A program made the translations under genes and the position numbers. Shown here in pieces: positions 1 to 36,349 of a stretch of DNA of 64,000 nt (positions are counted from its first letter, which is position 1; every line of letters begins with the position of its first letter). Source of the DNA: a virus. Under the pieces are notes generated by a model, which saw only the letters and a program-made list of their open reading frames with translations, was not told where the DNA came from and searched no databases. The stretch is from positions 1,157-65,156 of the IMG/VR virus record IMGVR_UViG_3300017829_000024; one strand, 5' to 3'.

Positions 1-837
1 GTAACCGGGAAAACGGATACGCACACGCGCGATCGCATTCTTCATGACCTCAAGACAGGCCGTTTGCGCGCCGTGACCAACGCAGACATCTTGACCGTCG
101 GATTCGACTGCCCACGAATCGATTTCATTGGCCTTCTTCGCCCCACGCTTTCGCCGGGACTCTTCGTTCAGATGGTGGGGCGCGGTCTTCGGCTTCATCC
201 AGACAAGGCCGACACCCTCATTCTCGACTACGGAGGCAACATTCAAAGACACGGAACGCTCGATGCGATCCGAATGCGTGAGCCCGGCGACAAGAAGGGA
301 ACTGCGCCCACGAAGGTCTGCCCCGTCTGTACGGCTGAGATCCCTCTGGCGGCCACAGAGTGCCCCGAGTGCCATGCCGATATCCGCAGCGAAGAGAGGC
401 CCAAGCCGAAACACGACGCAGAGGCCTCTGAGCAGGAGATCATTGGCACAGGCGCGCCCATAGAGGCGGTGAATGAAACTGTCACCGAGGTCCAGTATGC
501 CTATCATCGCGGCCGAAACGGAAAACCCCCGACCATGAAGGTCACCTATCGGCTCCAAGGCAAGCCTGCGCCCGTGTCCGAATGGGTCTGCATCGAGCAT
601 GATGGGTGGGCTCGGACGAGGGCCGAAAGCTGGTGGTTGCGTCGCTCCCTCGATAAGAAACACGCACCCGAAACGATTGAAGAAGCCCTCGCCCGAGCAC
701 CGGGCCTTCTTCAGCCACGGATCTTGGCCGTCGTCTACCCGCCTGATAGCTATCCAAAGATACGATGGGCAAAACGATTCATCGACCCGATCGGTCGACC
801 CGGGATGGAGAATGTGCGTCGGCTCAAACCAGTGTAG
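1..837 (+). CDS. SF2 (DEAD/DEAH, RadD/YejH-like) helicase, C-terminal part; 5' end outside window
   Basis: Frame open from base 1; motif V TNADILTVGFDCP, motif VI FVQMVGRGLR, LILDYGGNIQRHG, Zn ribbon CPVC..CPEC. Confidence 0.88.
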   Translation, partial: VTGKTDTHTRDRILHDLKTGRLRAVTNADILTVGFDCPRIDFIGLLRPTLSPGLFVQMVGRGLRLHPDKADTLILDYGGNIQRHGTLDAIRMREPGDKKGTAPTKVCPVCTAEIPLAATECPECHADIRSEERPKPKHDAEASEQEIIGTGAPIEAVNETVTEVQYAYHRGRNGKPPTMKVTYRLQGKPAPVSEWVCIEHDGWARTRAESWWLRRSLDKKHAPETIEEALARAPGLLQPRILAVVYPPDSYPKIRWAKRFIDPIGRPGMENVRRLKPV

Positions 838-1096
838 AGCACTATTATCATTGGCTCAAAGACGGCACGCGACTAGAACTTCTAGAGTGGGTTGGCGCAC
901 CGCTGGTCAGCTTTGAAGAGCTTGAAGAGATGGGCTACACGGTCATCATTGATAAGCGACTCGAGGTAACTCCTGGATTTGAACAGATGTAACGGGCCTC
1001 GGCATGCGGAAGCGGCGCGTTAAATGGCACAAGTTTACAGCATGCAATGGTATAGGCTTGACAGCGAAGCGAGGCGCCGCATACAGCGGTTTGCGG

Positions 1097-1768
1097 ATGA
1101 CAAAATCACAGCTTGCGGCGCCTCGTCGCATGAAGATCTCAACCGAATGCGCATTCACAATCAAGGGGCAAATAGACTGCCCCTTGCTGATGCACGCGCC
1201 GACAACCGTTGACCCGCTGAACCCATATTCAGTGAAGATGCGTAAGGTCTCTACAAAGCGCCAGAAAACCGAAGATGATTACGAGGCTATCTCTCGGATT
1301 GAGTTTCTTGCAGGGCTCTATTTCGAGGACGGAACCGGTCCGTACATTCCAAGTCGGGTCATTTCCGCGTGTTTGATTGATGGCGCTAAGAAGTTCAGGC
1401 TCGGTCGCGCCGCCCGTGCCGGCATTACGCCTAAATCGCCCCGGTTCTTCTTCAAGAAGTGGCGCGGACCCAAGACCGCCGAGGCGCTCTTTGAGTCTCG
1501 GCTCAAAGACGGAACACAGCGGTATGTTGATAAGCGATGCGTTCGCGTTACAACCAGCCGGATCATGAGGACGCGCCCCCGGTTTGACGCCTGGGAGATC
1601 GACGTAAGCCTCATCATTGACGCGACCGCATTTGATCCCGAGCGAATAGAAGACATCGTGCATGCCGCGGGCACGCTCGTCGGCATCTGCGATAATCGAC
1701 CCGAATGCGGACGATTTGAGCTCGATGGCGACATTGTCTTGACAGAAAACACACTCAAGATGGCCTAA
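1097..1768 (+). CDS. Small Cas7/RAMP-like RNA-binding protein (Vipr-like effector); start at 1097 or 1130
   Basis: FTIKGQ..PLLMH, YIPSRVISACL, R.RPRFDAW and C-terminal G-rich loop AGTLVGICDNRPECGRF typical of RAMP folds; lies upstream of a GGY-NN array. Confidence 0.72.
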   Translation: MTKSQLAAPRRMKISTECAFTIKGQIDCPLLMHAPTTVDPLNPYSVKMRKVSTKRQKTEDDYEAISRIEFLAGLYFEDGTGPYIPSRVISACLIDGAKKFRLGRAARAGITPKSPRFFFKKWRGPKTAEALFESRLKDGTQRYVDKRCVRVTTSRIMRTRPRFDAWEIDVSLIIDATAFDPERIEDIVHAAGTLVGICDNRPECGRFELDGDIVLTENTLKMA

Positions 1769-1781
1769 AAGGAGAACATCA

Positions 1782-2267
1782 ATGAATGCAGCAGAGAGGC
1801 GTCAACACGCACTTTCCCCGAAGGACCGAGCCATTGAGCGCGCTCATGTTCTCGCCGAGAAGATGATGGACTCACCCGGCGTAAGCTGGCCGGTTGACAC
1901 TGTCTGTCGCGAGCTTCAGATCCCCAAATGCAGAACGCATGACAGATACATACTGAGCGGATTCGAGGCGCTCTATCTGCATTCGGAGCTCGAACGTCAC
2001 GGTCATTACCTTGTGCCGGCTCGATCGGGAAACCGTGTGCAGTCCTACCATCTGGCAGATGATCGCGAAAAAGAACTGGTTGTCGCCAAGAAGTACGAGC
2101 AAAAGTCCATAACCTGCCTTGAAAAGCGCGTTCGCATCCTTGGTCAGGTTGTCAACTCGGACTACAACTCCGAGGAGAGAAAAAGATTAGAGGCCACGCG
2201 CCGCATCGCTTCCGCCGAGCTTGATGCGATAAAGCGCGCAAGAAAGCGCCACAAAGACGGCATCTGA
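1782..2267 (+). CDS. Accessory protein between RAMP-like gene and repeat array (function unknown)
   Basis: 161 aa ORF with RBS AAGGAG; stop codon 4 nt before the first pentamer. Confidence 0.75.
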   Translation: MNAAERRQHALSPKDRAIERAHVLAEKMMDSPGVSWPVDTVCRELQIPKCRTHDRYILSGFEALYLHSELERHGHYLVPARSGNRVQSYHLADDREKELVVAKKYEQKSITCLEKRVRILGQVVNSDYNSEERKRLEATRRIASAELDAIKRARKRHKDGI

Positions 2268-2271
2268 TCTT

Positions 2272-2850
2272 GGTTTGGCAGGGCATGGCCGGGCAAAGCC
2301 CGATCAGGCGCGGCCGGGTCAGTTGTGGCAAGGCTTGGCAGGGCTGGGCATGGCTAGGCATGGCAGGGCAGGGATTTGATCTGAATGTTTTACGGGGCCA
2401 GGCTCGGCAAGGCCCGGTGTGGCGTGGCAGGGCACGGTTCGGCACGACTTGGCACGGCAAGGCAAGGATTTGAATTCTAGATTTTTTCGGGGCATGGCAT
2501 GGCCAGGCTGGGCAAGGCAAGGATTTGAGTTTCAGAATTTAAACGCGGCCCGGCTCGGTGGGGTTCGGTGGGGCAAGGCACGGCGTGGCATGGCGAGGCA
2601 TGGATTTGAATTCTAAATTTAGATGCGGCTAGGCATGGCCTGGCTGGGCGCGGTCGGGCTCGGCCCGGCACGGTGCGGCATGGCCTGGCTGGGCTGGGCA
2701 AGGCAAGGATTTGAGTTCTAGGTTTTCACCAAGGCCGGGTTAGGCATGGCAGGAATTTGAGTTCTCAGTTTACGCGAGGCATGGCCGGGCGAGGCTCGGC
2801 GGGGCGCGGTATGGTGAGGCCAGGCGAGGCGCGACAAGGCAAGGGTTTGA
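2272..2850 (+). ncRNA. GGY-NN pentamer array, 7 units (20,14,6,11,16,4,13 pentamers), putative guide-RNA array
   Basis: Strict 5-nt periodicity; units at 2272-2371, 2396-2465, 2491-2520, 2547-2601, 2627-2706, 2733-2752, 2778-2842; each ends in GGATTTGA (variants GAATTTGA, GGGTTTGA); units separated by 24-26 nt AT-rich linkers. Confidence 0.9.
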
Positions 2851-2856
2851 GTGGAT

Positions 2857-3252
2857 ATGACACGCATTGAAACGATTGATCCGTCTCGGTTTGACGGCCG
2901 CCTTCGCCATCTTCCGCAGCCCAATGAAGACCTTCCCGTCCGTGCGTTTTGGGCAGACTATCTTGGTCAACCCAAAGGCCCCAAATGGAGGGGGCGCTTC
3001 GTTGACTGCGGAGACTATCGAGTCGAGCTTGTGCTTGATGATCAACAGTACCCAGACACGGTCAATCGATGTCCTCCGGGATGGTGGGATCGCCGCACCG
3101 GTCGGCCCTGCGGTGTGCCGGCGGATGTGGCATCGTTTCGGTTCGAGCTCATTCCAGCCGGCGAAACGCACTGGAGACAAGATGGCCAAAAGAAGCTTGA
3201 AGCGACGACGCATGACGAAGAAGAAGGCGCGTCAAAGCCTCCGAGACGGTGA
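2857..3252 (+). CDS. Hypothetical protein
   Basis: ORF starts right after the array; no recognised motif. Confidence 0.55.
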   Translation: MTRIETIDPSRFDGRLRHLPQPNEDLPVRAFWADYLGQPKGPKWRGRFVDCGDYRVELVLDDQQYPDTVNRCPPGWWDRRTGRPCGVPADVASFRFELIPAGETHWRQDGQKKLEATTHDEEEGASKPPRR

Positions 3253-3373
3253 CCCGCTAACCGACGAGCACCTCAAGACGCTCGAGATGCCCCGCGAGGC
3301 CTGGTGGGCCTATCGAGACATGCCTAAGCGATCGAAGCATGCCTTTGCTTGCGCGCTCGCCCAGCTCTTCTGA
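3182..3373 (+). CDS. Small basic hypothetical protein
   Basis: RBS GGAGA before ATG 3182; MAKRSLKRRR... Confidence 0.5.
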   Translation: MAKRSLKRRRMTKKKARQSLRDGDPLTDEHLKTLEMPREAWWAYRDMPKRSKHAFACALAQLF

Positions 3374-4383: not shown

Positions 4384-4438
4384 CCCTCGCCCGCGGCGAG
4401 AGGAGGATAAGGGACGATCTGTGCCTACATTTTGCCTG

Positions 4439-4716
4439 TGGACCGGCTGGACCGGGGTGGACCAGAGGTCGCGGTCCACACTTTTCTCAGTGCTTTCATA
4501 TACATACCTTCTTGGACCGTTGGACCAAGTAATGTCTATATATAAGAGGGGGTGCGCGCTCCCTAAAAAAAAGAGGGGGGGAGGAGTCAACACATAGTGG
4601 TGAGCGGTTTTTTGCTGGTCCACATCAGGTTTCAAGCTAAACGCCTGAAATAATTGAAGATTTCCCGGACCACGGGTCGCGGTCCAGGCGCGGTCCACCC
4701 CGGTCCAGCCGGTCCA
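4439..4716. promoter_or_regulatory. Putative replication origin with GGACC/GGTCC iterons
   Basis: Perfect 25-bp inverted repeat 4439-4463 / 4692-4716; about 12 GGWCC motifs in both orientations; AT-rich core; directly downstream of primase-helicase. Confidence 0.7.
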
Positions 4717-4755
4717 GGCCAGGTTTTTGAAGGGTATGCCCGAAGAAAAGTAGGG

Positions 4756-13687: not shown

Positions 13688-13801
13688 CCATGAACAGGAA
13701 CACGGATTTCTCAGCGGGCGGGCTGAGTGCGCAGTCCGAGGCCGGGTTGTGGGACCCTTGCCACCCAAGGCAGGCCTCTTCCCGCGCAGGGAGAGCCTAC
13801 C

Positions 13802-16800
13802 ATGCGCGAGCTTGGCGACCGATTGCGAAAACTCCTGGCCCTGCAGGGCGTAACGCCCGTGATGCGGCTCCTGGTGCAGGTGCCGCAGGAGACGGTGCTT
13901 CGTGTGACGGACGTCGCCGCGACGGGCCCAACAGTCTCCATCGTGGATCGGGAGGGGATGATCCAAACAGCGGACGCCGCCGCGGGCGCGTCCGACGTTC
14001 TTGTACGCACGCCGGCCGACCGGGCAAAGGCAATCGCCAAGGCCATCCAGGACGCCGAGGTAGAGGGCCTTTGGGCGAATTCGGATGCGGATCGGTCCGA
14101 CGTGGGCTTTGTCCGCATCGTCGTTGCGCCCGAGCTCAACCAGCTTCCGCAGATCTTGGCGGGCGGGACTGAGGTGGTCGATACGCCCGCGACGCCAGGC
14201 GCGGTCCGCTTCGTCGAGCTCAATTCGAGCGATGTACCGATGAGCGCGATTGGGGGCGCGGTCGGCGAAGTCGATCAGCCTTCTGGCTTTGGGACGATCG
14301 TCGAGGCCGAATCCCTCAAGACCGCGATCGATGTTCGCTCTCGAGAGCCGATCGGCGCCGCATTCCTAATCCGCGTAGCCGGCGGCGAGGGCATCCGGCG
14401 TCTGTTTCTCGTTCACCCGCCGCAATCGCTAAGACTGAACCTCTTTCTTGGCGCATATCACGCGAGAGATGAAGTACGCGTAGCCGCGGCCAACCAGTTC
14501 ATCGGCCCGGCCGTTCCTGAGTTTGAATCGTTTGGTCAATGGTATGTCAGTGAAGAGCCTGTCGGGCATCCAGATGGAACCGTTACGCTGACGATCATTG
14601 ACGAAATATCGCGACTCGCAAACCTCAAGCTTCAGCCTCTTCAGTTTCGATACCTTCACCCGTATCAGGCAATTGAAGAGCATCTCGAAACGATCGGCCT
14701 GCGTTCAGGCGCAGGCTATGCGCCAGGCACATTCAACCCCACCAGAAACCCGACGAAGGGTCATTTCATCGTCGGCAACTACAATCTAGATCAGAACTAC
14801 ATTGTCGAATCACCTCGAGACGCACAAGAGCGATCGATTTCGTTCACAAAGACCCTTCAGGATCTCCTTGTCACCACCGGCGATGCGCTCCGCATTAATG
14901 ACGAGGGCAACCTCGAGCTCATTCTTTATGACCCTACGACGGAGCCGGTACGTCATTTTAGAGCAGGTCCCGATACTGGTTTTGACGCAACCGTGCCAGA
15001 GCTCGTCAGTCCGCACATGTACAACCGGATTGTTTGGGATGTGCCCATCAGCCTGCTTACGCCGGCCAATCGGGACGGTGTCGACCAGAAGTACCCCGAG
15101 CGCATATCTCAGAAGTTCGAAAGCGAAGCCTCTAGAATATGGCTGCGTAAGATTGAAGATCTAAGCATCGAGAATCCCTATATTGGTCGCGCCACGAGCG
15201 GCGGTCGGCCCGTCACAGGCTCAGTGTGGAACACCTTCGTCCCGCTGAACTACGGCCAGGACTCTATGGTCTTTGAGCCCTATACGGACTCGGCAGGTGG
15301 CTTGATTGCGGGATCGGATCGGGTCCGAGTAAAGCATCCTCACGTAAGCAACTGGTGCGGCCTTCGCGTTGTTATGCCAGATTACAATCTGGAAGAGCCT
15401 GCGAACGACGAAAGATACGACCGCTTATACGATCCGGACTTTAAGAACCCGTTTACCGGTTCCTATCCCGCCTTTGAGTACGATGAGCTTGTCTATGAGG
15501 ACGATGTTGCAAACCTAAATCCCGAAGAAGGGCGAATCGCGTTCATCCGATTTGATCCCCCTGGCGGCCGAAAGCGCGTTCTCGATCTCCCTGTGGCAGA
15601 GATGAGCGGCCTGTTTCAGTTTGAAGGCCGAGAGATTATTCCGGACGAACCAGAGTTCTTGCCGGAGGTCATTGCGATCGACGAGTGGATCGTTCTTCTG
15701 GGTGACGAGCCGGGTAATGTCCATCAGATCCGCACGCACGCAAGGGCGGTGCTGCTGAACCGATTCGACGCGTCACTGGCCGAGCGCGAGAACCTGCCCG
15801 AGTTTATTCGGGTCGATCCATACATCCGTGAAGCGGTTCTTGAGGACCTGCAGTTTCATATTGCAGGGGATTTCATGCAGCTCGATCCCGAAGAGTTCCC
15901 TCAATACCGGCGGATCATTTCAACACGCGGCGACGGCCGGGGCATCAACAACACTCTCGTCCCTCACGCTTGGGCGCTTCGTCCGGCCCCCAATCCTCGT
16001 GCGCCCAAAGATGTCGCGACGATGTCGGACATTACGATTGCGACGTATCGATCCGCGGAGCTCCTCAACCGATTCGAATTCGGTGCGCCCGAGATTCGGT
16101 TCGACGTCAGAATCTCAAACCTGGACCTTCAGCTCGCTGATGTCATCACGATTGATGACCCGAGCTATGTGGGCTATCGCCGATCAGGCCTCGACCGGAC
16201 GGTTACGTTTGAAATCACAGGCCTAGAATACCACTGGCTCGCCGATCAGCCGCGCATCACAATCACGGCGGTCCAGCTTGCTGACAACGGCAACACGTCG
16301 CCCTATGCGCTCAAGCCCACCCGGCTTGTGCCTGAGAACATGGTCCCGCGTAATCGCGGCGTTGAATATCTTCGTCGTTCAGAGGACTTCTCTCCGGATG
16401 CCGAGATCGGCTTTTCGGCCAGCACGCTCACCGCGGAATGGAAGCGCACGAACTCCGCACAATCGAGTCTTGAGGCTGAATTCCGGGTAATGAGGTGGCG
16501 GCCCGTCAAGAACTACACGCACGTCCTGGGTCGATTTGTGGCGACCGGAATCGTCTATAACGCGGTCACGCAAAACTATCGAACATTTCGTGTCGAGACC
16601 GACTACACCTTCGATTACCAGGGCGTTCTTTCGCTCCGATCCACCGGTCAAGCATCCAAACTCCGCGAGAGCGGCGCCCTGCCCGAGGACATGGAGATCC
16701 GCCTCGATGCAGTAAACAATGCGCTTGAAGTCTGGGCCATTGGTACGGAGGGCGAGCAAAAGGAAGCCCAGGTCAATGCTGAGCTTCACGCTATCGAACA

Positions 16801-19800
16801 GAGCGCACTGATTGAGCCGCCTGATCAGGTATCTTCGATATTTGAGTGTGACACATTTGCCGAATGTGAGTTTATCGGCCTCGAGTTCATTGAGGGCGAG
16901 TTTGAGTGTGATGCTTTTTCAGAGTGTGAGTTCATTGGGGCGGTGGATGACGTTGTTCAGGACGTCGTCTCGACCTTTGATTGCGAGGCTCGGACAGAAT
17001 GCGAGTTTGAAGGCGTAGTCCAGGCGCCGCCAGAATGCCGGGTGGCCGCCGACGGCTTTCAGGATGGCGATGTCATTGTCCGGGGCGACACCCAGACTTT
17101 GAGCTTCGAGGCGCGCGATGACGTCGGCGTTGTGCGGGCTGAGCTCTATATCAACCGAAACCTGGTCCAGACTTGGCCGCCGGCCACGCCTCCAGCGCTG
17201 CCTTCTGATCCCGACACTTGGGTGCGGTTCGATTATCAGTGGGACACCAGCAATTACACCGGTGATGGAGCAGTCGTCACATTTGTTGCTTTTGATGCCG
17301 GCGATCGGGAATGCGCCGAAACGATCAAGGCCGATTTTGAGGATGCCCCGGCCGATTTCGTCTGCACCGTAACCGGCTTGACCGATGGCGATGTAGTGTC
17401 TGGGACTGAGCGGCTCGTCATCAGCGTGACAAACACTCCAGGGCTTGCTGAGGCCAGGCTGACCATCGACAACATTCTTGTCCGGAAATGGCCGCCTCCG
17501 CCCGATCAGGTCATTCAGGGTGTGGCGCAGCCTGACTTGCCCACCACCCGATCACAGAGCGAGCGGACCTTTACGTTCACTTATGACTGGAACACCACCG
17601 CCTCGCCGAACGAATCGGTCGTGATTCGTTTCATGGCCACGGATCTCGACGGTCGTTCGTGCGACCTCATTGCCAAGGCGGTCATTGAAAACCCGACGGC
17701 CGCTCCTGGCCGGGTCACATGCGCGCTTCAGGCCCAGACCGCAGCCGGTGGAGGGCAGCCCGCGATTTCGGATGGCTCGACGGTCACCGGCAACGTCTGG
17801 TTCCGAATCACCGCCAGCGCACCCACAGGAGGGCCTCTCCTTCGCCAGGCCGCGCTCACCATTGACGGGGACGACTTCTGGTTCGACAGCTTCCCAGGGC
17901 CGCAGAACGCCCTCTCCATTGTCGTGGGCCCATGGGACTCGGCGCCCAAGGCGGGCTCGAGCGTCATCGTGCGGCTCGAGGTGGTCGATGTGAACGGTGG
18001 GGTTTGCGTCAACTTCCTGAAGCTCGAGGTGGGCGGGACGGCGCCTCCGCCGGTTGAGGATGTGCCCTTCAACTGCGGTCTCTTCCTCTTCGCGAACAAC
18101 ATGGAGGTGAGCGACGGGGACGAGGTCACTGGGGAAATCGAGATTCGCTATAACGCCGAGTACGCCGCGGGGATCGCCGGCTTTGAGCTTTCGATTAATG
18201 GGTCGGTGCAGGACTCGGGCACCTTCGGGCCAACGCCGCCCATGACGCGTCTGCCGGCCACGCCGGCCGCTCCGGCGAACCTGGGGTTTGAGACGTTCAC
18301 TTGGAACACCTCGGCCCAAGGGGGCTCGGATGGCGTCTTGATTCGCCTGGATGTGGTCGGCCTCGATGGTCGGACCTGCACCGAGTTTTTCAAGGTCGAC
18401 GTGGGAGGCGTTGCCCCGCCGCCCATGGACGTTGCCCCGCCAGAATGCCGACTCGATGCGCGGATTGATGCTTCGAACCCCATCAATGACGGCGATACGG
18501 TCTCCGGAACGATTCAGCTCCTTGTGCGCGGTCGGGATCCGGCCGGGATCGCCGGCTACACCATCACGGCCGACGGCCGGACCATTGGCGGGCGAGACTT
18601 TCCGCCCGAGGCCATGACCACGCAATTCGGGTTCGACAGCGAAGGCAACCCGGATCCGACGGTCTTCAACTTTGATACGACGATCCTCGAGAACGGTCAG
18701 GATTTGATCTTCAAGCTTGAAGTGGTTGGGGTCAGCGGGCTGACGTGCCTGAGCTTTTTGAAGCTCACCGTAAACAACCCTGTCATTCCAGATGCGGACG
18801 TCCCGGTCTGCCGCATCAACTCTCCGCAGGATGGGGAAACGATTTCCGGAACGGAAACGCTCGTGGCAACAGCGAGCGACCCCGCGACCATCACGCGCAT
18901 AAGCTGGCAGATCGACAGCCAGCCGCCCATGGTGACCAACCTGGACATGCCTGAAGCGAGTCCAGATCCGTTCGAGCTCGAGCTCGACACAACGAGCCTC
19001 AGCAACGAAGGCCACATCATTCGGTTTGAGGCGACGAACGCCAATGGTGTCATGTGCCGCGACACGATCAAAGTCGAGGTGCAAAACGATCTGCCGACAT
19101 GTCAACTCACTCTGCCTGTCGCGGGTCAGTCATTTGTTGGGCCCTACGATATCGTCTTTCGTGTTCAGGCGCCTCGGGGTGTTCAGACAACACAGCTTTT
19201 CGTGGATGGTGTACCAATCGATTCGCGCACGTTTGACGACATGCCCACTGATACTGGATTTTTAACTTTTGGTGCATCGGTTGCGGATCTTTCAGTAGGC
19301 AACCACACTTTGAGACTATTGGCGGTCGACGCCAATAATGAAACGTGTGAGGAATCAGTTCAGTTTGTTCGGTCGGATGCAATACCTCCCACTGTTGATT
19401 TTTCTTTTCCAGGAGTAAATGTCACGGAATTCACTACGGCTGCGGCGGTCTCCTTTCGCGCCCGAATACGCACATCGGGCGGCCGTTTTGCTCGCCGAAT
19501 CCTGATGCTAAAAAACGGTGTTCAGGTAGGACAGGTTGGCGAAAGCTCTGCCAGCACTTCGCTGTTAGAAACCCCAGTATTCACGTTTCAGCCAGGCAAC
19601 GAACCGAATGGTCCGGTTGTTTTTACGGCAGTTGGAACCGATTCTGATGGCGTAACGAATCGATTTGAGCGCCGTTTTACGATCAATATCGGAGCAAATA
19701 GATTGCTTCGGATCACTCCATCAACCCCGCCTGCAAACCGGCTTGTCACCTACACCTCAAGCATCAGTCTTTTGGCTTCGATCCAACCCACGGGCTACAG

Positions 19801-21520
19801 CCTGAATCCGGACCTGGTCTCTCGCCGCATCTACATCGATGACGATCTCCTCATGGAGAATCGTTCGACATCTCAGATCAATCAAATTCGATTTAATTCC
19901 TGGAACCCAACTGCGGCCGGCCTGACGAATGGACAGCACATGGTTCGTTTTGAAGCAGAGACAAGCGATGGCCGAATTTGGTCTTCAGAGGTGCCTTTCG
20001 TCTTCAACGGCGCGACACCTGGCCCCACGATTGCGTTCACGCGGCCTGAGGCGAATGAGGTTGTATCTGGCTCTGTAACGGTTGATTTTGACCGAACCCT
20101 GCCGCCCGGTGCCATGTTCAATCGTCTCGAGTTTTTTGTGGATGACGAGACTGACCCAAGCCTCGAGTTCACGGAAGAGCCCACCAGCTTTCAATGGGAC
20201 ACTTCTTCGTCCGTCGATGGAGAGCACACACTTCGTTTGCGCATTACGGATTCAAACAACCGATCAGGTGAAGCAACACTTGAGGTCATTGTCCGCAATG
20301 CGGACACAACCCCGCCTCGGGTCACGTGGAACACACCGGCTGCCGATGCGGCACTGGGCTTTCCGCTGGCCAATGGGAATCCAAATCCGCAGCAGTCAAC
20401 CCCTCTTTCAGTTTCGGTCATCGACGATCAGAGCGAAGTGCGCCTTGTGGAGTTTTTGGTCGACGGCACGCTCATCGACTCCGAAACCGCCAACACGCGC
20501 GCTCCAAACTATTCGGGCACCTGGGAGTTTCGAAACTGGCCTGATGGGCCACATCTTTTGACGGTGCGCGCCACCGATGAGCACGGCAATCGAGGGGAGG
20601 CCACACGTCGAGTGTTCGTCCGGAGCGGCGGCGAGGGCGGCGCAATCCCGACCGCGCCCACGGTCGACATTCAACAGCCGACCACTGGATCCACGGTCTC
20701 TGGGGACATCCCAGTTCGAGCAACGGTTCTCGGCGACAACGTTCAGACCACGCAGCTTTTCGTGGACGGCACGATCTTCCGGACGAACCAGGGCCGAGAC
20801 GGGGCCTTCAGCCTTCCGACCGACGAGTTCACGAACGGTAACCACACACTCACGGTCCGGGCGGTGGATGCGCAGGGCAACGTGGGAACGGACTCGGTCG
20901 TCATCACAATCGCGAACGAAGCGGCGCCCGCGATCTCGGTGCGCATCGATTCGCCCATGGACGGATTCACGGTCACCGGAGACAGCGAGGACATCGCCTT
21001 TACGGTCACCGGCGGAACCGCGCCCTTTTCGGCGCAGCTCATTGTGGACGGAGCCAATGTCGGATCACCCGTGAATATCACCGGGGCCTCCGGCATGCTC
21101 ACGTGGCCGACGGCCGGCGCTTCGAATCGAGGCTACACGGTTTCGGTTCAGATCACAGACAACGCTTCGATGATGGCGTTCGACACCATCAAGCTCACCG
21201 TGAGCCGCCCCGACGGCGGACCCCGCATCACTTTCGTGGGCCCGACAAACATCCCCTCGAACAACATCAATGTGGTTGCGCAAATCCGCGTAGATGGCAC
21301 ACGCACAGTGACGCAAGCTTTCCTTCAGGCGGGCGCCGACGCCGCCATCACCCCAGACACCACCCTTCCCGCCGCTCCAGGTTCGATCATTCGGTTTACA
21401 TGGCCGATCCCGTCTTTCACCGGCGAGTCGCGACAGTACCCGTACACCTTTACGGCGCGCGATTCTGAAGGAAATCCAAGCAATGTGATCCGAGGGATCT
21501 GGACGATCGACCGAAGCTAG
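13802..21520 (+). CDS. Giant tail tip/adhesin protein: hub-like N-terminus plus about 14 tandem bacterial Ig-like domains
   Basis: About 2570 aa; repeats such as PTVDIQQP..GSTVSG...QLFVDG...TNGNHTLTVRAVD; RBS GGGAGAG before ATG 13802. Confidence 0.85.
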   Translation: MRELGDRLRKLLALQGVTPVMRLLVQVPQETVLRVTDVAATGPTVSIVDREGMIQTADAAAGASDVLVRTPADRAKAIAKAIQDAEVEGLWANSDADRSDVGFVRIVVAPELNQLPQILAGGTEVVDTPATPGAVRFVELNSSDVPMSAIGGAVGEVDQPSGFGTIVEAESLKTAIDVRSREPIGAAFLIRVAGGEGIRRLFLVHPPQSLRLNLFLGAYHARDEVRVAAANQFIGPAVPEFESFGQWYVSEEPVGHPDGTVTLTIIDEISRLANLKLQPLQFRYLHPYQAIEEHLETIGLRSGAGYAPGTFNPTRNPTKGHFIVGNYNLDQNYIVESPRDAQERSISFTKTLQDLLVTTGDALRINDEGNLELILYDPTTEPVRHFRAGPDTGFDATVPELVSPHMYNRIVWDVPISLLTPANRDGVDQKYPERISQKFESEASRIWLRKIEDLSIENPYIGRATSGGRPVTGSVWNTFVPLNYGQDSMVFEPYTDSAGGLIAGSDRVRVKHPHVSNWCGLRVVMPDYNLEEPANDERYDRLYDPDFKNPFTGSYPAFEYDELVYEDDVANLNPEEGRIAFIRFDPPGGRKRVLDLPVAEMSGLFQFEGREIIPDEPEFLPEVIAIDEWIVLLGDEPGNVHQIRTHARAVLLNRFDASLAERENLPEFIRVDPYIREAVLEDLQFHIAGDFMQLDPEEFPQYRRIISTRGDGRGINNTLVPHAWALRPAPNPRAPKDVATMSDITIATYRSAELLNRFEFGAPEIRFDVRISNLDLQLADVITIDDPSYVGYRRSGLDRTVTFEITGLEYHWLADQPRITITAVQLADNGNTSPYALKPTRLVPENMVPRNRGVEYLRRSEDFSPDAEIGFSASTLTAEWKRTNSAQSSLEAEFRVMRWRPVKNYTHVLGRFVATGIVYNAVTQNYRTFRVETDYTFDYQGVLSLRSTGQASKLRESGALPEDMEIRLDAVNNALEVWAIGTEGEQKEAQVNAELHAIEQSALIEPPDQVSSIFECDTFAECEFIGLEFIEGEFECDAFSECEFIGAVDDVVQDVVSTFDCEARTECEFEGVVQAPPECRVAADGFQDGDVIVRGDTQTLSFEARDDVGVVRAELYINRNLVQTWPPATPPALPSDPDTWVRFDYQWDTSNYTGDGAVVTFVAFDAGDRECAETIKADFEDAPADFVCTVTGLTDGDVVSGTERLVISVTNTPGLAEARLTIDNILVRKWPPPPDQVIQGVAQPDLPTTRSQSERTFTFTYDWNTTASPNESVVIRFMATDLDGRSCDLIAKAVIENPTAAPGRVTCALQAQTAAGGGQPAISDGSTVTGNVWFRITASAPTGGPLLRQAALTIDGDDFWFDSFPGPQNALSIVVGPWDSAPKAGSSVIVRLEVVDVNGGVCVNFLKLEVGGTAPPPVEDVPFNCGLFLFANNMEVSDGDEVTGEIEIRYNAEYAAGIAGFELSINGSVQDSGTFGPTPPMTRLPATPAAPANLGFETFTWNTSAQGGSDGVLIRLDVVGLDGRTCTEFFKVDVGGVAPPPMDVAPPECRLDARIDASNPINDGDTVSGTIQLLVRGRDPAGIAGYTITADGRTIGGRDFPPEAMTTQFGFDSEGNPDPTVFNFDTTILENGQDLIFKLEVVGVSGLTCLSFLKLTVNNPVIPDADVPVCRINSPQDGETISGTETLVATASDPATITRISWQIDSQPPMVTNLDMPEASPDPFELELDTTSLSNEGHIIRFEATNANGVMCRDTIKVEVQNDLPTCQLTLPVAGQSFVGPYDIVFRVQAPRGVQTTQLFVDGVPIDSRTFDDMPTDTGFLTFGASVADLSVGNHTLRLLAVDANNETCEESVQFVRSDAIPPTVDFSFPGVNVTEFTTAAAVSFRARIRTSGGRFARRILMLKNGVQVGQVGESSASTSLLETPVFTFQPGNEPNGPVVFTAVGTDSDGVTNRFERRFTINIGANRLLRITPSTPPANRLVTYTSSISLLASIQPTGYSLNPDLVSRRIYIDDDLLMENRSTSQINQIRFNSWNPTAAGLTNGQHMVRFEAETSDGRIWSSEVPFVFNGATPGPTIAFTRPEANEVVSGSVTVDFDRTLPPGAMFNRLEFFVDDETDPSLEFTEEPTSFQWDTSSSVDGEHTLRLRITDSNNRSGEATLEVIVRNADTTPPRVTWNTPAADAALGFPLANGNPNPQQSTPLSVSVIDDQSEVRLVEFLVDGTLIDSETANTRAPNYSGTWEFRNWPDGPHLLTVRATDEHGNRGEATRRVFVRSGGEGGAIPTAPTVDIQQPTTGSTVSGDIPVRATVLGDNVQTTQLFVDGTIFRTNQGRDGAFSLPTDEFTNGNHTLTVRAVDAQGNVGTDSVVITIANEAAPAISVRIDSPMDGFTVTGDSEDIAFTVTGGTAPFSAQLIVDGANVGSPVNITGASGMLTWPTAGASNRGYTVSVQITDNASMMAFDTIKLTVSRPDGGPRITFVGPTNIPSNNINVVAQIRVDGTRTVTQAFLQAGADAAITPDTTLPAAPGSIIRFTWPIPSFTGESRQYPYTFTARDSEGNPSNVIRGIWTIDRS

Positions 21521-30906: not shown

Positions 30907-30980
30907 GAATCATACGAACATCCGTACGAACATCAAGCGGAACATCCATAGAAAAGTCCATACAAACACCTGAACAAAAG
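30907..30980. repeat. Tandem degenerate 12-mer operator/promoter array, site 1
   Basis: CCGTACGAACAT CAAGCGGAACAT CCATAGAAAAGT CCATACAAACAC; minus strand TTGATG-N16-TATGAT. Confidence 0.7.
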
Positions 30981-30982
30981 AT

Positions 30983-35895: not shown

Positions 35896-36349
35896 TTTTC
35901 AGCCTCTCTCGCGCAGAGAGCGCGAGCTCGGCCCATGATGTGTATTGGCTTCCTCGGCCTTCTTCTTCGAGCTGATAAATGACGCGATCCAGGGCAATAT
36001 CCGTTTGAAGTTTCGCCCAAATCGCCATGTAGCCGCGCCGTGCTGTGTGATCCATTCCGGCCTGCATCATGAGGATCGATAGGGATCGGACGCGCTCGAC
36101 CGCGTCATCGTCTGATGCGTCCGCGAAGGCGAGCGCATCGACCGTGCGAAGGCGTTTGGCCTCATAGAGCGCCGCCTCTTGCCTCCAGGCCTGAAGGAGT
36201 CGCGGGTGGTCCTTCATGCGCTTTGCGAGCGTCGTTCGCGCCATCATGAGGGTGTCCGCGATTTGGGCGGGCCGAAGACCCTGACCCGCAAGGACGCGGA
36301 TGCGCGACTCGAGAAGCCGCACATCCTTGTGCCATGGCCGAGGAATCAC
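35855..36349 (-). CDS. terS: Terminase small subunit candidate
   Basis: N-terminal HTH (GLRPAQIADTLMMARTTL); GTGA overlap start; upstream of terL. Confidence 0.6.
   Translation of the reverse strand: MIPRPWHKDVRLLESRIRVLAGQGLRPAQIADTLMMARTTLAKRMKDHPRLLQAWRQEAALYEAKRLRTVDALAFADASDDDAVERVRSLSILMMQAGMDHTARRGYMAIWAKLQTDIALDRVIYQLEEEGRGSQYTSWAELALSARERLKNGERNRERTDNDQ

What the first reader, a model, noticed from the sequence alone, without database searches (positions are those of the whole stretch)
1097..2850. RAMP/Cas7-like gene plus GGY-NN pentamer guide array: a VIPR-type RNA-guided system in a phage
Seen: 84 pentamers, 79 of them exact GGY-NN, with a constant GGY and variable NN. They form 7 units, each closed by GGATTTGA and separated by 24-26 nt AT-rich linkers that often begin RTTYY. 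The array follows a two-gene operon whose first product has RAMP hallmarks (N-terminal beta strand, YIP motif, C-terminal G-rich loop AG..VGI.D.RP..GRF). Recalled knowledge, not checked here: the recently reported VIPR systems pair an ancestral RAMP protein with GGY/NN RNAs that recognise dsDNA while skipping every third target base. Inference: each unit is processed into one guide on which the RAMP protein oligomerises, one subunit per pentamer. No cas1/cas2 or nuclease is present, so silencing rather than cutting is likely.
Basis: partly seen in the sequence, partly recalled or inferred. Interest (0 to 1): 0.95.

Follow-up and report, generated by a model that had tools for sequence, protein, structure and literature searches.

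The report
Phage VIPR guide-RNA system
This uncultivated phage carries a complete VIPR system, a CRISPR-related, RNA-guided DNA-silencing system first described in 2026; two of its seven guides spell conserved motifs of replication helicase genes, so it is a new example of a known kind.

Summary
Window 2272-2850 (+) has 84 in-register pentamers, 79 of them exact GGYNN, in 7 units. Each unit ends in GGATTTGA or a one-base variant plus a short AT-rich tail.

The upstream gene (most likely 1130-1768, 212 aa) is a homologue of the solved SUSP1 Vipr protein (PDB 36pp; phmmer 7e-23, family profile 4.7e-66). Its RNA-contact residues H22, R149, D188 and R190 are kept. Its high-confidence model matches only Cas7-type RAMPs.

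VIPR is already published (three bioRxiv preprints, April to October 2026). This scan has noted it in at least 22 other genomes, so this is a new member of a known kind.

Applying the published rule of skipping every third base:
- Guide 7 matches the DnaB motif IRESGAIEQDA exactly and in codon register in 64 viral contigs. It also matches dnaB with 3 or fewer mismatches in 196 of 201 sampled proteobacterial genomes.
- Guide 2 matches motif V of SF2 helicases orthologous to the phage's own neighbouring helicase, whose own copy is diverged (18/28).
- No guide matches the phage's own genome above chance.
- Guides 1, 4 and 5 have no convincing target.

The accessory gene has no detectable homologue. 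The tails lack the SUSP1 pseudoknot. Expression, processing and silencing are untested.

The parts
1130..1768 (+). vipr gene: 212-aa RAMP protein.
   Evidence: phrog_4652 E 3.5e-40. tblastn to phiSUSP1 E 2e-22. PDB 36pp_D 'SUSP1 Vipr protein' phmmer 7e-23, profile 4.7e-66. H22/R149/D188/R190 correspond to SUSP1 H17/R138/D177/R179. AF2 pLDDT 96.7, and the top 50 PDB fold matches are all Cas7-type RAMPs.
1782..2267 (+). Candidate vipr-accessory gene (vap), 161 aa, with a strong AGGAG ribosome-binding site.
   Evidence: It sits between vipr and the array, as in SUSP1 and other loci. No Pfam or PHROG hit and no sequence homologue was found. hhalign against a 4-sequence vap1 profile was negative. 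The Atlas fold search gave TM 0.54 to viral hypothetical proteins and about 0.4 to MarR-type winged-helix regulators. The single-sequence AF2 model is poor.
2272..2395 (+). vrRNA unit 1: 20 pentamers (17 exact; degenerate at pentamers 6, 7 and 11), then tail from 2372.
   Evidence: The seed from pentamers 12-20 found only chance-level, non-extending matches.
2396..2490 (+). vrRNA unit 2: 14 pentamers, then tail from 2466. The guide spells, antisense, SF2 helicase motif V (VNVDVLTTGFDC).
   Evidence: Three exact viral matches (24 specified bases), all in codon register in helicases 35-41% identical to the phage's own. Up to 27/28 NN match.
2491..2546 (+). vrRNA unit 3: 6 pentamers, then tail from 2521. 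Too short to search.
2547..2626 (+). vrRNA unit 4: 11 pentamers, then tail from 2602. It decodes to a Walker A loop, PSGSGKTV[IM][DE][IM].
   Evidence: Decoding. No exact target in viral or metagenome contigs. Seed hits and the bacterial sample were at chance level.
2627..2732 (+). vrRNA unit 5: 16 pentamers, then tail from 2707. No target found.
2733..2777 (+). vrRNA unit 6: 4 pentamers, then tail from 2753 (GAATTTGA). Probably a remnant.
2778..2850 (+). vrRNA unit 7: 13 pentamers, then closer GGGTTTGA at 2843. The guide spells, sense, the DnaB motif (I/M)R(E/D)SGAIEQDA.
   Evidence: 64 exact viral contigs, all in frame. At least 120 bacterial contigs, 119 of 120 in frame on the motif. 196 of 201 sampled genomes match with 3 or fewer mismatches; the reversed control gave 0.
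1..837 (+). Context: 3' part of the phage's own SF2 DNA helicase. It is an orthologue of the unit-2 targets but diverged at the target site (about 70-110).
   Evidence: Helicase_C and phrog_16. Own motif V reads TNADILTVGFDC and scores 18/28 NN, at chance level.

Best explanation
Window 1130-2850 is a VIPR (Viral Interference Programmable Repeat) locus in the replication module of an uncultivated tailed phage. It consists of vipr, a small accessory gene and an array of seven vrRNA genes.

Shown here:
- The protein is a homologue of the solved SUSP1 Vipr and keeps the residues that hold the GGY bases.
- The array has constant GGY and hypervariable NN.
- Read as NN-x-NN-x (skipping every third base), guide 7 equals codon positions 1-2 of the DnaB helicase motif IRESGAIEQDA. 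Guide 2 equals, on the opposite strand, motif V of a phage SF2 helicase family.
- The phage has no DnaB. Its own SF2 helicase is diverged at the guide-2 site, and no guide matches its own genome above chance.

Inferred from the SUSP1 work:
- The three parts are transcribed together from upstream of 1130.
- The transcript is cut in the AU-rich linkers into separate guides.
- One Vipr protomer binds each pentamer to form a filament that presents the NN bases.
- The filament binds double-stranded DNA carrying the gapped match and blocks transcription. No nuclease was found next to the locus.

The likely purpose is to stop rival phages or prophages in the same cell from expressing their replication helicases. 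Skipping the wobble base makes synonymous escape impossible.
For: - Array anatomy and statistics.
- Homology to characterised Vipr. The family has 2244 clusters at E<=1e-3.
- RAMP fold.
- Every relative's locus examined also carries GGYNN arrays beside vipr.
- Exact, in-frame, wobble-skipping targets.
- Targets of guide 2 are orthologues of the phage's own helicase, and one target contig (L068) carries its own VIPR.
- No self-match at 80% or more.
- No DnaB in the phage record.
- No CRISPR array and no Rfam ribozyme.
- Published mechanism.
Against: - Nothing here shows transcription, processing, RNP formation or silencing.
- SUSP1 W178, which stacks on G2, is N189 here, although other family members also have N or Y.
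- K33 is R38 here.
- The tail is short and has no stable or covarying structure, unlike the SUSP1 pseudoknot.
- Units 3 and 6 (6 and 4 pentamers) are shorter than the published 9-16 repeats, and unit 1 has three degenerate pentamers.
- Three of the five long guides have no convincing target.
- The accessory gene could not be tied to any published vap.
- Guide 7 also matches bacterial dnaB almost universally, so its intended target is ambiguous.
Confidence: 0.88

Rival explanations
1. The machinery is the same VIPR system, but its main job is host take-over rather than inter-phage conflict. Guide 7 would silence the host's own dnaB while the phage replicates with its own primase-helicase and SF2 helicase.
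For: The guide-7 code matches chromosomal dnaB with 3 or fewer mismatches out of 22 (at least 86%) in 196 of 201 evenly sampled genomes of one phylum. It matches exactly in at least 120 bacterial contigs from many phyla. The phage has no DnaB_C domain, and no integrase was found. It encodes a primase-VapE helicase.
Against: Most chromosomal genes carry 1-2 mismatches (L for I, S for A), whereas exact matches are common in viral contigs. Existing DnaB protein would outlast a transcriptional block within one infection (inference). Guide 2 is clearly aimed at a phage-type helicase found in few bacterial genomes (7 of 201, all with 3 mismatches). The host is unknown.
Confidence: 0.2
2. The locus is a decaying or inactive VIPR remnant, with the guide array no longer used.
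For: There are five degenerate pentamers and two very short units. The G-loop has N in place of W. The accessory gene has no relatives. Three long guides are orphans.
Against: Both ORFs are intact. The residues shown to be essential in SUSP1 (R138, D177) are kept. 79 of 84 pentamers are perfect. Two guides retain 100% matches to real genes over 22-24 specified bases, which drift would erase. The paper itself notes frequent internal degeneracy of vrRNAs.
Confidence: 0.07
3. The pentamer tract is not a guide array. It could be a DNA-level element (G-rich iterons or a G-quadruplex-forming tract) or a translated repeat peptide, with the RAMP-like gene unrelated to it.
For: GG every 5 nt could form two-tetrad quadruplexes. 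ORFs of 65-67 aa can be drawn across parts of the tract.
Against: The same GGYNN arrays sit beside vipr homologues in five unrelated loci. The NN strings spell conserved helicase motifs exactly. Each linker places stops in two or three frames (one frame in unit 6's linker). The 5-nt period is out of phase with codons.
Confidence: 0.02

Closest known systems
Type II VIPR system of Escherichia phage SUSP1 (Vipr + vap1 + vrRNAs; bioRxiv 10.64898/2026.04.26.720920 and 10.64898/2026.04.26.720927; PDB 36pp)
   Same: Homologous Vipr protein (29% identity over 86% of its length, E 2e-22) with H, R, D and R contacts conserved. A two-gene operon followed by a downstream array. GGY/NN repeats with a constant 3' tail. 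Phage-borne. Targets are coding sequences read at codon positions 1-2.
   Different: There are seven guides in one tight array, against one upstream plus three downstream. The tail is 24-26 nt, AU-rich and without predicted structure, against a roughly 40-nt pseudoknot. Guide lengths run from 4 to 20 repeats. The accessory protein shows no detectable similarity to vap1. W178 is N. Targets are replication helicases, not a satellite recombinase. Assignment to type II is my inference; the types could not be checked because the classification tables are not held.
Uncultivated VIPR locus on IMG/VR contig 3300024512_000152 (L068)
   Same: Vipr 32% identical. Multi-unit array with a short T-rich tail beginning GGA. 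Orthologous SF2 helicase (41% identity) within 4 kb. GC 63% against 59% here.
   Different: The tail sequence differs (GGACTTTTTT..CGTACAACT). Units are interleaved with small ORFs. The gene order differs. It is itself a target of this phage's guide 2 (26/28 NN).
Cas7-family RAMPs of class 1 CRISPR-Cas (Csm3, Cmr4, type VII Cas7)
   Same: RRM core, thumb hairpin and glycine-rich loop. Best PDB fold matches have E 1.9e-6 and TM 0.42-0.52.
   Different: No CRISPR repeat-spacer array, no other cas genes and no adaptation module. The guide is read as two of every five bases rather than five of every six.

Membership tests
VIPR system | Vipr protein: a small single-RRM RAMP with thumb and G-loop, homologous to characterised Vipr | tested here: met
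   phmmer 7e-23 and profile 4.7e-66 to PDB 36pp 'SUSP1 Vipr protein'. The fold matches Cas7 RAMPs. Beta-hairpin at 133-152 and loop GICDNRPECGR at 185-195.
VIPR system | Residues that bind the GGY bases (SUSP1 H17, R138, D177, W178, R179) and the backbone (K33) | tested here: inconclusive
   H22, R149, D188 and R190 are identical. K33 is R38 and W178 is N189, but N or Y also occur in other family members.
VIPR system | Adjacent tandem YNNGG (GGY/NN) repeats, at least 4 units, with constant GGY and hypervariable NN | tested here: met
   84 pentamers, 79 exact. Entropy is 0.09, 0.31 and 0.65 bits at GGY against 1.90 and 1.99 at NN.
VIPR system | Invariable 3' tail after each repeat tract | tested here: met
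   GGATTTGA(R)TTCTAG-like tail after all 7 units. No stable or covarying fold was found, so the SUSP1-clade pseudoknot is not shared.
VIPR system | vipr-accessory (vap) gene in the operon | tested here: inconclusive
   A 161-aa gene sits in the expected position. No homology to vap1 or to any family was found. There is only a weak fold-level resemblance to winged-helix regulators.
VIPR system | Natural targets obey the 1-nt skip rule, with the skipped base on the codon wobble position and either strand allowed | tested here: met
   Guide 7: 64 viral contigs match exactly, sense, in frame. Guide 2: 3 match exactly, antisense, in frame. Guides 1, 4 and 5 have no target.
VIPR system | No self-targeting at 80% or more NN match | tested here: met
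   The best own-genome scores are 58-68% NN for the five long guides, no higher than in shuffles.
VIPR system | Viral or proviral context | tested here: met
   The record is a virus record with portal, tail, primase-helicase and tRNA genes.
VIPR system | vrRNAs are expressed, bound by Vipr, and repress matching DNA | not testable with these tools
   This needs sRNA-seq, pull-down and reporter assays.
CRISPR-Cas class 1 (Cas7 effector) | CRISPR repeat-spacer array and further cas genes | tested here: not met
   The only short-range direct repeats in the window are the pentamer array and a 24-nt element. No Rfam match. No cas domain was found in the neighbours searched.

The most novel reading that the evidence does not exclude
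Guide 7 would be a natural broad-spectrum guide. By reading only codon positions 1-2 of an almost universal DnaB motif, one 11-unit RNA could address the replicative helicase gene of most bacteria and of many phages. This phage would then use VIPR both to shut off host dnaB and to block DnaB-dependent rivals, while it replicates with DnaB-independent enzymes. That would extend VIPR from element-specific targeting (satellite recombinase, prophage regulators) to protein-motif-level targeting of a universal essential gene.
Probability: 0.3. Interest if true: 0.65.

Novelty: new member of a known kind. Interest (0 to 1): 0.45.

Why it matters
VIPR is a months-old discovery, and its natural targets have been worked out mainly for the SUSP1 and Pseudomonas fulva clades. 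This locus adds a distant member (29% identity to SUSP1 Vipr) from an uncultivated phage.

It differs in three ways: the array is compact, its tails are short and unstructured, and two guides are aimed at catalytic-core motifs of replication helicases. One targeted helicase family includes the phage's own diverged gene, and one targeted contig carries its own VIPR.

The DnaB guide also shows how far the wobble-skipping code can generalise. One guide reaches at least 86% match in 196 of 201 sampled bacterial genomes. That bears on how specific VIPR really is, on whether phages use it against hosts, and on off-target risk if VIPR is used as a tool.

Tried and rejected
- **Guide 4:** the exact search found nothing in viral or metagenome contigs. 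A 9-NN seed gave 2 hits with no extension, as chance predicts. A bacterial sample gave 1 of 101 against 2 for the control. The Walker A decoding stays suggestive only.
- **Guide 5:** exact 14-NN, 12-NN and 9-NN searches all found nothing.
- **Guide 1:** the seed from pentamers 12-20 gave 92 hits. They come mostly from one redundant AT-rich prophage family, do not extend (4 of 22) and are not in an ORF, so I rejected them as chance.
- **Sibling arrays with the same tail string:** more than 119 hits, none beside GGYNN repeats.
- **Co-occurrence of the guide-7 target on guide-2 target contigs:** none. The DnaB target loci share no other genes with this phage.
- **Reciprocal targeting by L068's guides:** chance level, from a rough parse.
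- **Accessory gene:** BLASTP, hhalign and the word-indexed search were all negative. The single-sequence AF2 model was too poor for a fold search.
- **RNA and regulatory signals:** no Rfam family, including hammerhead. No convincing sigma-70 promoter or terminator inside the locus.
- **VIPR type assignment:** the paper's tables are not held as text.
- **Host identification:** failed. There is no near relative among 50,697 phage records, and the portal protein is at most 27% identical to any.

Full report
**1. The observation**

I read window 900-3300 and walked back in 5-nt steps from each closing motif. The tract 2272-2850 on the + strand consists of seven units of 20, 14, 6, 11, 16, 4 and 13 pentamers.
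- That makes 84 pentamers in all, and 79 fit GGYNN exactly.
- Positions 1-3 are nearly invariant (entropy 0.09, 0.31 and 0.65 bits; 67 GGC and 12 GGT).
- Positions 4-5 are close to maximal entropy (1.90 and 1.99 bits), and all 16 dinucleotides are used.
- Runs of four or more GGYNN occur nowhere else in the 64 kb on either strand. Shuffled sequence gives 0.5 such runs.
- Each unit ends in GGATTTGA (five units), GAATTTGA or GGGTTTGA. An AT-rich stretch follows, and the next unit starts 24-26 nt after the start of the closer.
- The pentamers are 72% GC and the tails 35% GC.

**2. What the class is**

Three bioRxiv preprints of 2026 describe them.
- The discovery paper (10.64898/2026.04.26.720920) describes a Vipr RAMP protein, a vap accessory gene and vrRNAs made of 9-16 YNNGG repeats plus an invariable 3' tail.
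  - The systems are mostly phage-borne.
  - They recognise double-stranded DNA by pairing only the NN bases and skipping one target base.
  - They act as transcriptional silencers of rival mobile elements.
- The structural paper (10.64898/2026.04.26.720927) shows one protomer per repeat. It names the contacts H17, R138, D177, W178, R179 and K33.
- The third paper (10.64898/2026.10.15.759431) shows that the skipped base coincides with the codon wobble position of an active-site segment of a satellite recombinase, which blocks synonymous escape.

**3. The protein**

- **Family.** The ORF matches phrog_4652 (unknown function) at E 3.5e-40 and has no Pfam hit.
  - tblastn against phage genomes finds 131 records, including Escherichia phage phiSUSP1 itself (E 2e-22, 29% identity over 86%) and phages of Gordonia, Mycobacterium and Pseudomonas.
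  - An exhaustive search finds 2244 clusters at E<=1e-3. The best is only 43% identical, so this is a divergent member of a large family.
- **Solved relative.** The solved-structure sequence library contains 'SUSP1 Vipr protein' (36pp). The query alone hits it at 7e-23, and a 68-sequence family profile hits it at 4.7e-66.
- **Residues.** In the alignment, SUSP1 H17, R138, D177 and R179 are H22, R149, D188 and R190 here, and all are invariant in the eight-sequence alignment. K33 is R38. W178 is N189, at a position that also varies (N or Y) in other members.
- **Start codon.** Homologues are about 190 aa and begin near residue 10-17 of the 1130 form. ATG 1130 is therefore the likely start, and the 254-aa gene call from 1004 is an over-extension.
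- **Fold.** An AlphaFold2 model built on 66 sequences has mean pLDDT 96.7. Its 50 best Foldseek matches in the PDB are all Cas7-type RAMPs (Csm3, Cmr4, type VII), with E down to 1.9e-6 and TM 0.42-0.52.

**4. The accessory gene and the tails**

The 161-aa gene at 1782-2267 has a strong AGGAG site and sits where vap sits in SUSP1, in Gordonia phage MakoManhole and in three metagenomic relatives. The evidence on what it is remains weak:
- No Pfam or PHROG hit and no sequence homologue in 5.8 billion proteins.
- No BLASTP or hhalign link to vap1.
- The ESM Atlas gives only fold-level leads: TM 0.54 to viral hypothetical proteins and about 0.4 to MarR-type winged-helix regulators.
- My single-sequence model was too poor to use.

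I call it a vap candidate by position only.

Every relative's locus I fetched carries GGYNN arrays beside vipr, but the tails differ:
- a pseudoknot in SUSP1;
- a hairpin plus about 60 nt in L071;
- a terminator-like hairpin in L072;
- a tRNA-like minihelix in the Gordonia phage.

Here the tail has no stable fold (0 to -3.7 kcal/mol), and the consensus fold is negligible (-0.84 kcal/mol) with essentially no covariation. No Rfam family, hammerhead included, matches. No promoter or terminator stands out inside the locus. Co-transcription with vipr and vap, followed by cutting in the AU-rich linkers, is therefore my inference and has not been shown.

**5. Targets under the published NN-x rule**

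I decoded each guide as codon positions 1-2, in both senses.

- **Guide 7** reads [IM]R[DE]SGA[IM][DE][HQ][DE]A.
  - Its 22 specified bases match 64 IMG/VR contigs exactly. All matches are in frame on (I/M)R(E/D)SGAIEQDA of DnaB-type helicases, on the coding strand.
  - The same code matches at least 120 bacterial contigs from many phyla, 119 of 120 on the motif.
  - In 201 evenly drawn genomes of one phylum, 196 have a match with 3 or fewer mismatches, typically at LRESG(A/S)IEQDA of chromosomal dnaB. The reversed control pattern gave none.
- **Guide 2** read antisense gives VNVDVLTTGFDC.
  - Its 24 specified bases match three viral contigs exactly, in frame on motif V of SF2 helicases, with up to 27 of 28 NN.
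  - These helicases are full-length orthologues (35-41% identity) of the phage's own SF2 helicase, which lies just upstream of the locus.
  - The phage's own motif V (TNADILTVGFDC) scores only 18 of 28, at chance level.
  - One target contig, L068, carries its own vipr homologue and a multi-unit array with a similar short T-rich tail.
  - Guide 2 is narrow: 7 of 201 bacterial genomes, all with 3 mismatches.
- **Self-targeting.** No guide matches the phage's own 65.5-kb record above shuffled expectation. The record has no DnaB domain.
- **Guide 4** decodes to a Walker A loop but has no real target in any collection.
- **Guide 5** has no target.
- **Guide 1's** seed hits are chance.
- **Guides 3 and 6** are too short to search.

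**6. Mechanism and its limits**

The best-supported reading is a working VIPR system that silences the replication helicase genes of competitors, with self-immunity through absence (DnaB) or divergence (SF2 helicase).

Filament assembly, gapped pairing and silencing rest on homology to SUSP1. Nothing here shows expression.

The near-universal match of guide 7 to bacterial dnaB leaves open a host-directed role, which I give about 0.2. For that reason I report the DnaB and SF2 matches as observations and price the broad-spectrum reading modestly.

**7. Novelty**

The class, its code, wobble alignment and active-site targeting are all in print. This scan has already noted VIPR in at least 22 other genomes. 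This locus is a new member.

Its particular features are:
- the compact seven-guide array;
- the short unstructured tails;
- an accessory gene with no relatives;
- the N for W substitution in the G-loop;
- helicase-motif guides.

The phage itself is distant from all cultured phages, and its host is unknown.

Noticed in passing
L002:2985-3025 and L002:3100-3140 (Gordonia phage MakoManhole, PQ184807.1): The tails of this phage's vrRNAs fold as an acceptor-like stem stacked on a T-arm (GGTTCGACTCC). This is a tRNA-like minihelix and might recruit tRNA-processing enzymes. ARAGORN calls no tRNA there.
   Followed up: partly
L068:3400-5621 (-), IMG/VR contig 3300024512_000152: A contig targeted by guide 2 carries its own vipr homologue and several GGYNN units with the tail GGACTTTTTT..CGTACAACT, interleaved with small ORFs. 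Its guides do not match this phage above chance (rough parse).
   Followed up: partly
window 4438-4463 and 4678-4717: Tandem and inverted GGTCC-type repeats flank an AT-rich core beside the primase-helicase gene. Another first-stage note reads this as a possible replication origin.
   Followed up: no
window 36256-36350 (-): ARAGORN calls a tRNA-Glu(CTC) that is 95 nt long, which is unusually long for a tRNA.
   Followed up: no
window 30946-30981 and 45193-45240: A 24-nt element, CCATACAAAAAGCTAGACAAAC-like, occurs as two adjacent copies at two distant places.
   Followed up: no
window 1004-1129; L072:10-195: Gene callers extend vipr ORFs upstream (254 aa against about 190-212 aa). In L072 the extension runs over an upstream GGYNN array.
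   Followed up: partly
window 13727-21520 (+): A 2597-aa ORF rich in bacterial Ig-like domains (Big_7, Big_13, Ig_J), presumably a giant tail fibre or host-recognition protein.
   Followed up: no
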